64,000 bases of DNA from NCBI GenBank assembly GCA_964016885.1, contig OZ024756.1, positions 22,568,001 through 22,632,000 on the forward strand, in the 5' to 3' direction. Below the pieces are notes generated by a model, which searched no databases, was not told the DNA's origin, and worked only from the letters and a program-made list of their open reading frames with translations. Every line of letters begins with the position of its first letter. The stretch's first letter is position 1. Shown here in pieces: positions 13,385-58,530 of the stretch. Made by a program: the position numbers and the translations under genes. This DNA comes from Eledone cirrhosa (lineage: Eukaryota).

Positions 13385-13732
13385 TATAGAAATTACTTCG
13401 ATAGAAATGATTTCTGACGAATGAAACGGTTCTAGTCCTGTAGAAGTCATTTCTATATTAAAATAAATAAACATATATATATATATAAGTTTATTCCGGG
13501 TTCAATCGGGGGTAACCACAGTAAGTAAGGTACTCAATACAAAGCAGAGTATAAATATTTAGTATAGAAATGGCTTCTACAGGACTAGAACTGTTTCATT
13601 CGGGTACTTGGATAGTCGGCTTCCTGATGATTTCTCCCAAACGGAACAGTTCTAGTCCTGTAGAAGCCATTTCTATATTAAATATTTATACTCTGCTTTG
13701 TATTGAGTAGCTTACTTACTGTGGTTACCCCC
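13385..13732. mobile_element. Family A hammerhead elements: partial copy plus palindrome (hammerhead + 13618-13668, GAAA mutated to GGAA)
   Basis: ggcttc CTGATGA..GGAAC ag ttctagtc ct GTA gaagcc; arms ggggtaaccacagtaagtaag / cttacttactgtggttacccc end in (TA)n. Confidence 0.85.
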
Positions 13733-13862
13733 TATATATATATATATATATATATATATATATATATATATAGAGAGAGAGAGAGAGAGAGAGAGAGAGA
13801 GAGAGAATTGCATCAATGTTTACCGTAAGTATATATATATATATATATATATATATATATAT

Positions 13863-14045
13863 ACGTTATTCCAGGTTGAATCGGAGATAACCACGGTAAG
13901 TAAGGTACTCAATACATTGCAGAGTATAAAAGTTTTAATATAGATGAGATTCTACAGGTCTAGAACTGTTTCATTCTCTAGAAATCATCAGGAATCCTGA
14001 TGATTTCTAAAGAATGAAACAGTTCTAGTCCTGTAGAATCTCATC
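13863..14045. mobile_element. Family A palindrome with intact minus-strand hammerhead 13948-13996
   Basis: gattc CTGATGA tttc taga gaat GAAAC ag ttctagac ct GTA gaatc. Confidence 0.85.
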
Positions 14046-14166
14046 TCTCTCTCTCTCTCTCTCTCTCTCTCTCTCTCTCTATATATATATATATATATAT
14101 ATATATATATATATATATATATATATATATATATATAACTGTAGATATAAGAGTAGCGTATCTTAC

Positions 14167-14363
14167 CTTGTGTAGTCTCCGAGTCAGATATAACAACAAC
14201 ATTTGGAATGTGTGTTATGTCGGGTGAGACCCGGGGTGATGGCAATATGTCGAAGCTCTCATCTTCGCTATCCCCGCCACATAGGGGTAGGAGCTTATTG
14301 TCCTGGGTGTCCTGACTGTTCTCATCAGACAGGTACCCATTATGAGGCGACTGGTCGGGTAAG
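14167..14363 (-). CDS. Candidate internal coding exon (197 nt, phase 2 to 1) of an unidentified gene; acidic, likely disordered peptide
   Basis: Acceptor ttctttcctccattacag, donor CAAG|gtaaga, open frame LPDQSPHNGYLSDENSQDTQDNKLLPLCGGDSEDESFDILPSPRVSPDITHIPNVVVISDSETTQ, GC higher than flanks. Confidence 0.7.
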
Positions 14364-16102
14364 CTGTAATGGAGGAAAGAACATGTTAAAATACTTGCCA
14401 TAATCTTAGACAACATCATAAACAAACTTCTTGCTTTTTCAAAAGAGATGTGTAATTCTACACTGAACAATTAACTTTCATATACGGTCGCTATCAATGG
14501 TAATGCAAGCAGCTACACAGAATCTAGAAATAACAGCAACATCTCTCTCAAATGACACCCATCATCTTCGAAACGTATATTGGAATGTGGTATAGTCTTC
14601 TCTGAACATAGTAAATATACATCTTCGAAAAACATATTTGTCATATTTTAACATTTACCATTACCTCCATTTTACCCACATATTTCGACCATGCTATCCC
14701 TCATCTTATTTATAGCCATATTTCCAGCAGTCATCTCCACTATTTTATTTACCATCTTAACCACTGATTGGAATGTCTTTAATCATATCACCACTTGATC
14801 TGAGCTGACCTGTGACTAAACACCACCAACCGGCACAGTTACACACATTTATACAAAACATGTTTAATGCAGACTCAGCGAATCGTTTGGTGTAATGATA
14901 AGGTATAAGAGAGACTTGGTTGCTGTGTTCCGTTGTGTCAGTTTGTTGGTCGAGGTCGGGCATTGAATGCTCAAAAGCGGTTTCTGCCTAACCCCAGTTT
15001 TATCGTGATAAGCACTCGCATGAGTGTTTGTATTTGAATGAGGTAGAGCAAGATAAATAGAGACAGAGAGAGAGAGAGAGAGAGAGAGTGAGAGAGAGAG
15101 AGAGAGAGAGAGAGAGAGAGAGAGAGAGAGAGAGAGAGAGAGAGAGATGAATGGTTCAAGTGGGAGATAGATATAGATAGATAGAGAGAGAGAGAGGGAG
15201 GGAGAGAGAGAGAGAGAGAGAGAGAGAGAGAGAGAGAGAGAGAGAGAGAGAGAGTGAGAGAGTAAGGATTCAAGAGAGAACCTACACACTAGAAAGAACG
15301 ACACACTTTTGAAGTAACATTCACTGCTGATTATCGATGTCTATTTATTTCAAACTGTGGCGTAGATAATTAAATTTCGTCATGCCATTACCACCAGCTC
15401 TACCAGCACTACCACAACGCAATCAGCGCTTTACGCAACTAAACGCTTGAAGTGGGGTTGAGTTGGATACGTTTGAAAGGATTCTGCAATCTCCTTTCCA
15501 CTTAACTTTTGCGGTTTTCACACCTGAGAGATTTTAAAATGTTAGTTTCACATTGAAATGCATTTTTAAATACTGCTCTGAAATGCAACAAGAACTTGCA
15601 GCTGTTAAAAATGGATCAGCTGCAGTATAAATGTTTCAGGTATGAAACGTAATGATATGGTGATGTTGTGCGTTTCTGGGTGGTGTTTAGCATGAAGAAT
15701 GAACGTGTAGGTTGGTTAGGTTTGGCAGCATAATTTAGCATAATATTTGAGTAGGATTAAAAGTGATTCCTCTCATCGGCGGTTTTTTAATATGTATATA
15801 TATATATATATATATATATATATATATATATATATATGGGGGGGTGTAAACAATAAAATATAGTAGCAGTAGTAATAGTGGTGGTGGTGGTGGTGGTGAT
15901 GGTGGTCGTGGTGAGGTTGGTGGTGGTGATAGTATTATTACTATCAGTACTTTACTGGTACTCTACTTTCTCAGACTCGGAAGAAGAAGAAGAAGAAGAA
16001 GAAGAAGAAGAAGAAGAAGAAGAAGAAGAAGAATTCGCGAACAATTAAAACTTATACAAAGCCTATGAACACAAAATCTCATATATATATATATATATAT
16101 AT

Positions 16103-56589: not shown

Positions 56590-56908
56590 TAGGGGCGTGT
56601 AACAGGAGGCCCGCGAGCCACTATCCGGCATGCCAGACCAGTCAGAGTGGCACGCGATGAGCGTTTTTAATTTTTACCTTGTAGGTTTATTTAGAATTTT
56701 TTTCGTAACCGTAATACAATTTTCTGTTAGTTGACCTATACTAAAGGGCTTCACTGATAGGGTTATGTGTGTTATAATTTCCCAGTTCCATATTATGGAA
56801 AGGAGTTGTGGTGAATCTTTGGGATAATGCTTAATAAATATCAATGGCCCTATTAGTTGTTCCAATGTTCAAAAGTGGCCCGCCAATGAAATATGTTGCA
56901 CACCCATG
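56590..56908. mobile_element. hAT (Charlie-like) MITE
   Basis: TIRs taggggcgtgtaaca / tgttgcacacccatg; perfect 8-bp TSD gattagac. Confidence 0.85.
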
Positions 56909-58119
56909 GATTAGACTAACTCTAAACCTTGTCCTTTTCTTTATTACATGCGCCAAATATTATTGATTCTTTACAAAATTCAGATGAACCCCACAACAGA
57001 GGCTTCCTCCCTTGTCTGTTATGCTGTTCTGTTGCTGCACACTCAGTCATCTTAGACAACATCCATAGAAAAACCATTCCACTAAATGTCAGTCAGAAAC
57101 ACAATCCATAGCCATAATCCACATTTGTGCTCTATCCTCACCCTTCCTTTCTAGCTACCACTACAATGGCGAGTCATATGTCACCTTTCTCAAGCACTTC
57201 ACGCTTCCTTATTACCTACACTATCATCATTACTAATATTCTGTTTGTAACCCAATTCATTTACTAATTAATACACCCAGTCATTGCTGTCCAGAGCATC
57301 ATACCTCTGAAAATACCTCCCGGGCTTTGTTTTTTCAGCACTTTAAACGGAATGTCAACGATAACGTCTTTCCAATCTTGGACAGAATGTCCAGATGACC
57401 GCCTTTACTCCAGATCTACCATATCAAAATATAACTTCAACTGAATCTACTTAGAAAAGTCTTCATCAACCTTTAGATCACTGAATATTTATTTATTTAT
57501 TTATCCCTTCTTTCTTTCTTTCTTTCTTCCTTTCTTCCTTCCTTTCTTTCGTTCTTTCTTTCTTTGTTTCTTTCTTTCCTTCTTGCTTCCTTCTTTCCGT
57601 CTCCCCCCCCTTCTCTTTCTCTTTCTCTTTCTCTCTCTCTATCTCCCTTCATTCAACCATTCCCTCTTTTATTTCTTCCCCCCATTGTAATAGTTCTACC
57701 ATTTCTTTCGTTCTTTCATTGCTGTCTCCAATGTTATGTTATTGTCTCCCAGACAGGAAGTGAGAGACGTAGAAGAAAAACAAAACAAAACAAGACAAGA
57801 ATCAGTAATGTGCTTTCTGAATGTTTACCAAAGTTTATAAATGGAGGTTTGCAGTAATTAAATGATACACTAGTGGTGGATATATTGGTGGATTGGTGCT
57901 GATTCCTAGAGAGCTGTTCAATAATGTGTCTGTAATCACAGTTGTCTACTTTTATAAAAGAACTGCTATTTGTGAAGTTATGTGTGCGCCTGTATACAGG
58001 TACATAGGTGTGTGTATATATATATATGTGTGTGTGTGTGCGTATGTGTGTGTGTGTGTGTGTGTGCGTGTGTCTGTGTGTGTGTAGTATACATGTATAT
58101 ATATATATATATATATATT

Positions 58120-58325
58120 TTTATTTTATTTTATAGAAGGAGCTTCTACAGGACTAGTACTGTTTCATTCAGATGAAATCTTCAGGAAGCTCCTGAAGAT
58201 TTCATCTGAATGAAACAGTACTAGTCCTGTAGAAGCTCCTTCTATAAAATAAAAAAATTTTACTCTGCCATGTATTGAGTACCTTACTTACTGTGGTTAT
58301 CCCCGACTCAACCCGGGACCTACGT
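58120..58325. mobile_element. Family A palindrome with intact minus-strand hammerhead 58140-58192
   Basis: gagcttc CTGAAGA tttc atct gaat GAAAC ag tactagtc ct GTA gaagctc (7-bp stem I). Confidence 0.9.
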
Positions 58326-58340
58326 ATATATATATATATA

Positions 58341-58530
58341 TATAGAATGCAGTAATGGCTTCGACAGGAATAGAACTGTTTCATTCGAAGGAAATCATCA
58401 GGAAAGCCTGAGGATTTCCTTCGAATGAATCAGTTCTAGTCCTGCAGAAGCCGTTTCTATATTAAATATGTATTCTCTGCTATGTATTGAGTACTTTACT
58501 TACGTAGTTGCCCCCGATTGAACCTGGGAT
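58341..58530. mobile_element. Family A palindrome; minus-strand hammerhead 58357-58407 with GUC site
   Basis: ttc CTGATGA tttc cttc gaat GAAAC ag ttctattc ct GTC gaag. Confidence 0.85.

What the first reader, a model, noticed from the sequence alone, without database searches (positions are those of the whole stretch)
13385..58530. Family A: covariation supports the fold, and inversions break at the same point just 5' of the core
Seven loci (13.4, 13.6, 14.0, 45.6, 53.4, 58.2, 58.4 kb). Stem I covaries (gattc/gaatc versus gcttc/gaagc). N7 varies (U, G, A), loop II varies (taaa, taga, atct, cttc) and H17 varies (A, C), while the rest of the core is fixed in the intact arms, as expected for a selected hammerhead. 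In four loci the palindrome centre lies a few nt upstream of C3 (cagg aat cctg, cagg att cctg, cagga agc tcctg, cagg aaag cctg), so typically only one arm keeps a full stem I. Inference: reverse transcription stalls or folds back at the ribozyme, or two cDNAs primed on opposite strands of the palindromic TA target join by microhomology there.
Basis: partly seen in the sequence, partly recalled or inferred. Interest (0 to 1): 0.8.

Follow-up and report, generated by a model that had tools for sequence, protein, structure and literature searches.

The report
Head-to-head Penelope mini-elements with hammerheads
These palindromes are real pairs of very short repeats that carry a hammerhead ribozyme motif and sit head to head in TA microsatellites, likely laid down by a Penelope-type jumping gene when two copies made from opposite strands of the target were joined; a known kind of insertion, but with an unusually sharp joining point.

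Summary
The seven loci exist: 13 arms, 7 with an intact type I hammerhead core (U10.1-U11.1 variant, palindromic loop III). Stem I covaries at two pairs, suggestive only (n=5). Four of six head-to-head joints are symmetric just 5' of C3; two break elsewhere. Reads from a species holding the family show what the window hides: a natural upstream linker, head-to-tail units of 77-81 nt, and two 3' ends about 65 nt apart, both abutting microsatellite, the Penelope 'tail' signature. Among 13 listed inversion joints only 2 are symmetric at the core's 5' edge; loop II is a second hot spot, and 7 join a tail-only arm to a core arm. In 3 of 4 window palindromes the arm with the templated centre lacks the tail, so simple fold-back cannot have made the longer arm. 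Best reading: a non-autonomous Penelope-derived mini-element inserted by two-strand priming, the two cDNAs joining at 1-4 bp inverted homologies. Two other hammerhead families in the window invert 58 and 78 nt upstream, so ribozyme stalling is not general. No autonomous parent, RNA or cleavage was shown.

The parts
13373..13399 (-). 13.4 left arm: weak short arm that begins at about the cleavage site (stem I 3' strand onward)
   Evidence: BLAST 85% over 27 nt, E=0.001
13400..13472 (+). 13.4 right arm: core starts at about A6 (C3-G5 missing), preceded by a 9-nt inverted copy of its own downstream sequence; short 3' end at (TA)n
13492..13602 (-). 13.6 left arm: starts inside loop II, carries the whole tail, ends at (TA)n
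13608..13735 (+). 13.6 right arm: about 10 nt of upstream linker, intact stem I (GGCUUC/GAAGCC), damaged stem II/GAAA, partial tail
   Evidence: linker likeness by eye against table 7
13864..13997 (-). 14.0 left arm: intact hammerhead with templated stem I (C3 at 13991) plus tail; ends at (TA)n
13996..14046 (+). 14.0 right arm: intact core (C3 at 13997), no stem I 5' strand, short end at (CT)n(TA)n
45551..45624 (+). 45.6: single degenerate short arm, preceded by a 6-nt remnant like the other palindrome centres
53270..53398 (-). 53.4 left arm: intact core (C3 at 53397), no stem I 5' strand, whole tail (53270-53333), ends at (TA)n
53397..53464 (+). 53.4 right arm: intact hammerhead with templated stem I (C3 at 53403), short end at (TA)n
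58124..58194 (-). 58.2 left arm: intact hammerhead with up to 9-bp stem I (C3 at 58185), short end at (TA)n
58191..58325 (+). 58.2 right arm: intact core (C3 at 58193), 64 of 64 nt complementary to the left arm, whole tail, ends at (TA)n
58345..58408 (-). 58.4 left arm: intact core (C3 at 58401, H17=C), templated stem I with one extra U, short end at (TA)n
58407..58531 (+). 58.4 right arm: core damaged at 15.1/16.1, whole tail, ends at (CA)n

Best explanation
Family A is a very short hammerhead-bearing repeat (unit 77-81 nt plus an optional 65-nt tail) that sits in TA microsatellites and is likely a non-autonomous derivative of the terminal repeat of a Penelope-like retroelement; its palindromes likely form when the helper enzyme primes two cDNAs on opposite strands of the target and their 3' ends are joined. 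Shown: hammerhead motif, two 3' ends that both abut microsatellite, head-to-tail units, head-to-head joints with 1-4 bp of inverted homology at the four symmetric centres, one tailed and one tail-less arm in 4 of 4 symmetric loci. Inferred: one primer starts at the tail end and the other at the short end (the two start sites known for Penelope-like elements). On a single unit this gives a tail-only arm joined to a core arm; on a tandem RNA, where the second primer sits at the end of the previous unit only 13-14 nt upstream of C3, it gives two core arms head to head. The joint then settles on the small inverted repeat that stem I and the core form together (G or GG or AGGA against C, CC or TCCT), or on the stem II hairpin. 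The hot spot would thus come from the short unit and its local hairpins, not from self-cleavage.
For: Two 3' ends in reads: loose microsatellite ends before 53272 (489, 490 reads) and before 53337 (418, 533 reads); same two classes in the window. Tail on one end only, adjacent inverted 5'-truncated copy and (TA)n preference are described for EN+ PLEs (PMC8557442); the Anolis Poseidon protein nicks and extends both strands and starts at two sites that bound the tail (PMC11167929). Head-to-tail joints 53399 to 53334-53340 give units of 77-81 nt in 9 of the 12 rows shown in table 5c. Templated stem I lies on the tail-less arm in 3 of 4 palindromes. 7 of 13 listed opposite-strand rows join an arm that ends at 53315-53336 to a core arm (102 of 352 and 185 of 424 reads), the twin-priming pattern described for L1 (PMC2837659). 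Loop II varies at 17-47% per position in reads while core positions, apart from G12 at 7%, are not among the 40 best-supported rows (113 rows not shown). Helix III forms a far stronger self-dimer (-12.8 to -15.6 kcal/mol) than hairpin (-1.4), as for dimer-type PLE/retrozyme hammerheads (PMC4209133).
Against: No autonomous parent was found: no genome is held, no RT or GIY-YIG remnant was found beside the loci tested (0 Pfam hits in 5 of 5 fragments next to 53.4). No tandem unit occurs in the window (0 of 7 loci). Called tandem joints are few (89 reads in X22) against 1600 loose ends that continue past the linker into unresolved sequence, so many copies may be stubs of a longer element. Arms within a locus are always of one subfamily (0-5 differences in 45 nt against 7-10 between subfamilies), which fold-back explains as well. 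Tail-only arm ends may in part be alignment clipping where subfamilies diverge, and up to 40 unlisted letters may lie in a joint. Organism A may not be the window's species, RAD libraries sample few loci, and hairpins may drop out of short-read libraries.
Confidence: 0.55

Rival explanations
1. Ordinary 5'-truncated pseudo-LTR stubs of a longer Penelope-like element whose RNA begins (transcription start or processed end) at the 5' edge of the hammerhead; run-off cDNAs end there and join head to head.
For: Four joints within 5-7 nt between the two C3; most loose ends behind 53399 are not called as tandem joints; dispersed single and opposite-strand hammerheads are attributed to truncated PLEs (PMC4209133); unchecked AI notes from other genomes reach this reading.
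Against: Most reads that reach the edge continue into the natural linker (1600 and 1771 reads), so the edge is not a general end; 13.6 extends about 16 nt upstream; tandem units of one length exist in several sequence variants.
Confidence: 0.25
2. Fold-back self-priming: one cDNA (or an antisense RNA, as proposed by Arkhipova et al. 2013) stops near the ribozyme, snaps back on a small hairpin and copies itself; the endonuclease then trims the tail from one arm.
For: Centres are symmetric within 1-4 nt; arms are identical at 58.2 (64 of 64) and near-identical at 14.0 and 53.4; joints 53397/53399 and 53381/53382 fall on natural hairpins; self-priming and EN-mediated tail resolution are proposed in PMC3846280 and PMC8557442.
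Against: In 3 of 4 loci the copied arm is the longer one, which needs an extra trimming step on the first arm; asymmetric joints are 9 of 13 listed rows; two other hammerhead families invert 58.5 and 78 nt upstream of C3.
Confidence: 0.15
3. A palindromic MITE-like element descended from one ancestral palindrome and moved as DNA.
For: Long inverted repeats in TA context; 14.0 and 53.4 share subfamily and centre (AAT and ATT are reverse complements).
Against: Four different centres tied to three subfamilies; at 14.0 and 53.4 the templated centre is on opposite arms relative to the tail; outer ends are unequal, so no terminal inverted repeats; at least 13 different inversion joints and head-to-tail units in reads.
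Confidence: 0.05

Closest known systems
Insertion units of endonuclease-positive Penelope-like elements (pseudo-LTR, adjacent inverted 5'-truncated copy, tail; Arkhipova et al. 2013 PMC3846280; Craig et al. 2021 PMC8557442)
   Same: Head-to-head inverted copies with a palindrome at the joint, tail on one end only, microsatellite targets, hammerhead near the 3' end.
   Different: No ORF; whole insert only 180-240 nt; tail about 65 nt against 30-40 nt; joints crowd on the hammerhead's 5' edge and loop II.
Animal non-LTR retrozymes (Cervera and de la Pena 2020 PMC7229834; Li et al. 2026 bioRxiv 10.64898/2026.07.22.740005)
   Same: Non-coding, type I hammerhead, head-to-tail units, low GC, proposed to be non-autonomous PLE derivatives; unit length lies within the 51-972 bp range of the preprint.
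   Different: Units (77-81 nt) are shorter than the 150-450 bp of the 2020 paper; in this window all copies are single or inverted, none tandem; expression and circular RNA not tested.
PLE hammerheads with palindromic helix III (Cervera and de la Pena 2014 PMC4209133)
   Same: Type I topology, palindromic loop III (CUAG), predicted to work better as a dimer, opposite-strand pairs reported.
   Different: 4-bp helix III; 3-bp stem II opened by U10.1-U11.1 instead of G10.1-C11.1, a natural variant reported by Perreault et al. 2011 (PMC3088659).
Twin priming and dual priming of L1 (as described in PMC2837659)
   Same: Two primers on the two target strands give inverted, joined cDNAs.
   Different: Here both arms can repeat the same 3' module, which needs a tandem RNA or two RNAs; no target-site duplication can be read in (TA)n.

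Membership tests
Type I hammerhead ribozyme | Core CUGANGA, GAAA, UH with three helices | tested here: met
   7 of 13 arms have the core; 3 pass a strict descriptor, 0 passes in 30 shuffled windows
Type I hammerhead ribozyme | Covariation of helices | tested here: inconclusive
   2 of 13 pairs change on both sides; 39 of 500 shuffles as high
Type I hammerhead ribozyme | Canonical G10.1-C11.1 pair | tested here: not met
   U-U in the intact arms; a reported natural variant (PMC3088659); same core in 4 of 5 metagenome hits with type III frames
Type I hammerhead ribozyme | Match to an Rfam hammerhead model | tested here: not met
   0 hits at gathering in the window; no hammerhead family among 26 hits at E<=5 in 53200-58700
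Type I hammerhead ribozyme | Self-cleavage | not testable with these tools
   Hammerhead fold is 3-10 kcal/mol above the MFE fold in 4 of 4 arms folded; needs an assay
EN+ Penelope-like element | ORF with telomerase-like RT and GIY-YIG endonuclease | tested here: not met
   No ORF in the arms; no Pfam hit in 5 fragments beside 53.4; so not an autonomous element
EN+ Penelope-like element | Tail on one end only (two RT start sites) | tested here: met
   4 of 4 symmetric loci; two end classes in reads; length 65 nt, longer than the 30-40 nt in print
EN+ Penelope-like element | Adjacent inverted 5'-truncated copy, head to head | tested here: met
   6 of 7 loci; 13 of 15 listed joint rows
EN+ Penelope-like element | Sequence homology to the pseudo-LTR of an autonomous PLE | not testable with these tools
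   No genome held; motifs absent from the text supplements of PMC8557442
Animal non-LTR retrozyme | At least two consecutive units each with a complete hammerhead | tested here: inconclusive
   0 of 7 window loci; head-to-tail joints in reads and contigs, shorter side up to 61 nt, array length unknown
Animal non-LTR retrozyme | Expressed, self-cleaved, circular RNA | not testable with these tools
   No RNA run was laid
MITE | Terminal inverted repeats with equal ends and a fixed internal structure | tested here: not met
   Outer ends differ by up to about 65-80 nt; centres differ between loci

The most novel reading that the evidence does not exclude
Penelope-like elements insert by obligatory twin priming at their two start sites, and this 78-nt tandem retrozyme records it in miniature: tail-only plus core-arm inversions come from one unit, head-to-head hammerhead palindromes from two neighbouring units of one RNA. 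One mechanism would then explain the one-sided tail and the inverted 5' copy of all these elements, and the whole product fits in one short read, so it can be counted by the thousand.
Probability: 0.3. Interest if true: 0.7.

Novelty: new variant of a known kind. Interest (0 to 1): 0.38.

Why it matters
How Penelope-like elements make their tandem and inverted insertions is named as open by Craig et al. 2021. A very abundant element (7 loci in 64 kb; 10,430 contigs of one run lie on a 145-nt arm) whose whole insertion is under 250 nt makes the question countable in one assembly and testable in vitro. If the reading holds it also adds a very small retrozyme-like unit with a U-U variant hammerhead. 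The architecture itself is known, so the gain is mechanistic detail, not a new class.

Tried and rejected
No genome held for the window, so no genome-wide breakpoint plot and no R-scape run. Pattern scans for host copies found none in viral, prokaryote genome or metagenome contigs; a looser core pattern gave 5 metagenome hits that share only the 26-28 nt core. No RNA holder was listed. Run X18 laid 0 reads (no test). Rfam gave only hairpin-type chance hits far below gathering. One search used a mis-registered structure string and is void; one search replaces it. A 3-bp microhomology I first read at the 13.6 joint was dropped: the CCC is the left arm's own loop II. A polymerase III B-box-like motif at the tail end on the antisense strand is kept in only 2 of 5 tails and has no A box: rejected. 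The linker ends in CAG just before the usual break, like the intron end at helix I of D. virilis Penelope, but the AG is absent in the 13.6 subfamily and no donor was found: left as a lead. Breaks at the cleavage site: only 1 of 13 arms (13.4 left, weak). The 52414 likeness to the linker lies in another repeat and is taken as chance. Host looks like an octopod by its repeats (recalled, no call shows it); searches with 'octopus' and 'hammerhead ribozyme' gave no description of this family. Searches for a printed link between PLE inversion joints and the hammerhead edge, or PLE twin priming, found none; subscription papers and bioRxiv supplements were not visible, file 1 of the PMC4209133 supplement was not searched, and the PMC13282606 supplement was listed but not read; a repeat library there could already hold this family.
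Full report
Observation. The window is AT-rich animal DNA full of microsatellites (34% GC). All seven loci are present. A covariance model built from five arms finds 12 arms at E<1e-4 and nothing else below E=1.6 (five of these match by construction); a weak 13th arm lies at 13373-13399. Read in sense, an arm is stem I 5' strand, CUGANGA, U, a 3-bp stem II with a 4-nt loop, U, GAAA, a 4-bp stem III with an 8-nt loop holding CUAG, UH, stem I 3' strand, an A+T-rich stretch of about 20 nt, and in 6 arms a further tail of up to 65 nt. 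Seven of 13 arms keep the core. A strict descriptor passes 7 cores in the window, 3 of them Family A, and none in 30 shuffled windows. Rfam has no match.

Fold. On the five arms with a templated stem I, 63 of 65 cells pair; two stem I pairs change on both sides, stems II and III never do, and 39 of 500 shuffles reach the score. So covariation is suggestive, not significant. Stronger support comes from reads: the four loop II positions vary at 17-47%, whereas core positions other than G12 (7%) are absent from the 40 rows shown (113 rows not shown). The U10.1-U11.1 opening of stem II departs from the consensus but is a reported natural variant (PMC3088659, section 8 read), and the same core lies in type III frames in 4 of 5 metagenome hits. 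The hammerhead fold is 3-10 kcal/mol above the best fold in 4 of 4 arms, and helix III pairs far better with a second copy (-12.8 to -15.6) than with itself (-1.4). That fits dimer-type PLE hammerheads (PMC4209133, parts 1-2 of 4 read). Cleavage is untested. Inside a transcribed palindrome the long hairpin (-68 to -108 kcal/mol as RNA) would be expected to suppress the ribozyme fold, so these loci are likely dead ends.

Joints in the window. Four of six head-to-head joints are symmetric, with 5-7 nt between the two C3; a crude uniform null gives about 2e-6 over ten spots. Each centre matches its own subfamily's stem I and has 1-4 bp of inverted homology. 13.6 joins loop II to about -16; 13.4 breaks inside the core with a 4-nt overlap and carries a second piece that starts near the cleavage site; 45.6 is a single arm. 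In 4 of 4 symmetric loci exactly one arm has the tail. The arm with the templated stem I is the tailed one at 14.0 but the tail-less one at 53.4, 58.2 and 58.4. A fold-back copy cannot be longer than what it copies, so these three need two templates or later trimming. Arms of one locus differ at 0-5 of 45 nt, subfamilies at 7-10; no locus mixes subfamilies. Two other hammerhead-like families in the window also lie head to head, but invert 58.5 and 78 nt upstream of C3.

Other copies. No genome is held. Sixteen of 24 listed runs hold part of the element. I laid 4 of them on one arm (53268-53412): 10,430 contigs of X1 and 6,745 and 6,865 RAD reads of X22 and X23 (all organism A, which may or may not be the window's species); X18 gave none. 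(i) Microsatellite follows two 3' ends, at 53272 (489, 490 reads) and 53337 (418, 533 reads). (ii) Behind 53399, 1600 and 1771 reads run on, with a consensus that begins ATCTGG (agreement 0.58, 0.53; ATCTGGGTATCA in X22 and in the tandem joints), so the natural stem I is AGAUUC/GAAUCU, preceded by a 7-8 nt linker. The drop in depth at 53399 is where my reference leaves the natural sequence, not a break. (iii) Head-to-tail joints give units of 77-81 nt in 9 of 12 rows of table 5c (16 rows not shown); called tandem reads are few (89 in X22, 36 in X23). (iv) Of 15 joint rows shown (19 not shown), 13 change strand: 2 symmetric at the 5' edge, 2 with both sides at loop II or just 5' of it, 2 loop II to 5' edge or beyond, 7 tail-only to core arm. 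The symmetric 5'-edge class is 48 of 352 and 59 of 424 reads, 6 of 34 and 10 of 33 start sites, 16 of 35 contigs; up to about 50 more reads per run pass straight through the centre. It is a real hot spot but not the only one. RAD sampling is uneven, hairpins may be under-represented, and the tail-only ends may partly be clipping where subfamilies diverge.

Mechanism. Shown: motif, two ends, microsatellite targets, tandem units, joint classes, arm asymmetry. Inferred: mobilisation by an endonuclease-positive Penelope-like element that favours (TA)n. The Anolis Poseidon protein nicks and extends both strands, is predicted to be a dimer and starts at two sites that bound the tail; its hammerhead is not needed for insertion in vitro (PMC11167929, parts 1-2 of 4 read). 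If one strand primes at the tail end and the other at the short end, one unit gives the tail-only plus core-arm inversion, as in L1 twin priming (PMC2837659, passages). On a tandem RNA the short end of the previous unit lies 13-14 nt upstream of C3, so the first cDNA would end there and the second would copy another core; the two 3' ends would pair on the nearest small inverted repeat, which is the one formed by stem I and CUG, or stem II. I put this at 0.55. Rivals: run-off at an RNA 5' end near stem I (0.25), fold-back with tail trimming (0.15; self-priming proposed in PMC3846280, passages and Discussion read), DNA-transposed palindrome (0.05).

Comparison with what is known. The adjacent inverted 5'-truncated copy, the one-sided tail and microsatellite bias are standard for EN+ PLEs (PMC8557442, passages and a supplement search; PMC2377424, passages). 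Opposite-strand hammerhead pairs 100-700 bp apart were reported in 2014. Tandem type I hammerhead repeats are non-LTR retrozymes (PMC7229834, passages), with units of 51-972 bp and a proposed PLE origin (bioRxiv 10.64898/2026.07.22.740005, parts 1-3 of 5 read). Family A works like a non-autonomous PLE derivative; it is not an autonomous PLE, and retrozyme membership is open because arrays, expression and circles are not shown. Octopus vulgaris has 31 recently active Penelope-like families (PMC13282606, part 1 of 3 read); that the host is an octopod is my recall only. I found no paper that ties PLE inversion joints to the hammerhead edge or to twin priming. Unchecked AI notes report the same edge clustering in other animal genomes; they are leads, and they suggest the hot spot is not special to this family.

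Verdict. Observation partly confirmed; interpretation partly supported; new variant of a known kind; interest 0.38.

Noticed in passing
window 10450-10785: Second hammerhead family (stem I UUUUAU/AUAAAA, long stem II, palindromic UGCGCA helix III) as a head-to-head palindrome of about 165-nt arms; centre 58.5 nt upstream of C3.
   Followed up: partly
window 24790-24975: Related head-to-head pair, centre 78 nt upstream of C3; the right arm breaks off after stem II begins.
   Followed up: partly
window 53700-53766 (minus) and direct repeat 52995-53229 / 53822-54054: Another type I hammerhead (8-bp stem I) flanked by a 230-nt direct repeat, like a partial tandem of a different PLE; locus 53.4 sits in the TA tract at the end of the left copy. 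No Pfam hit in five nearby fragments.
   Followed up: partly
window 30380-30456 (minus): Large type I hammerhead candidate (stems 6, 6, 8 bp) next to a (TG)n(TA)n tract.
   Followed up: no
window 555 (minus), 10105 (+), 36148 (minus), 17383 (+): Further minimal-hammerhead-like cores near microsatellites.
   Followed up: no
L001:4999-5052, L002:183-237, L003:4999-5052, L005:4998-5052: Type III hammerhead frames with the same U10.1-U11.1 core in metagenome contigs; in L003 it lies between small phage-like ORFs; no Rfam hit at E<=0.05.
   Followed up: partly
window 13472-13492 and 58325-58345: Family A insertions stack: neighbouring loci face tail to tail across one short TA tract, so the family reuses the tracts beside earlier copies.
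   Followed up: no
window 40931-41407: LINE remnant with a weak zf-RVT match (E=0.0026, below cut-off).
   Followed up: no
window 6312-6908, 45704-46076, 52150-52600: Abundant SINE-like repeat, in part as 200-bp tandems.
   Followed up: no
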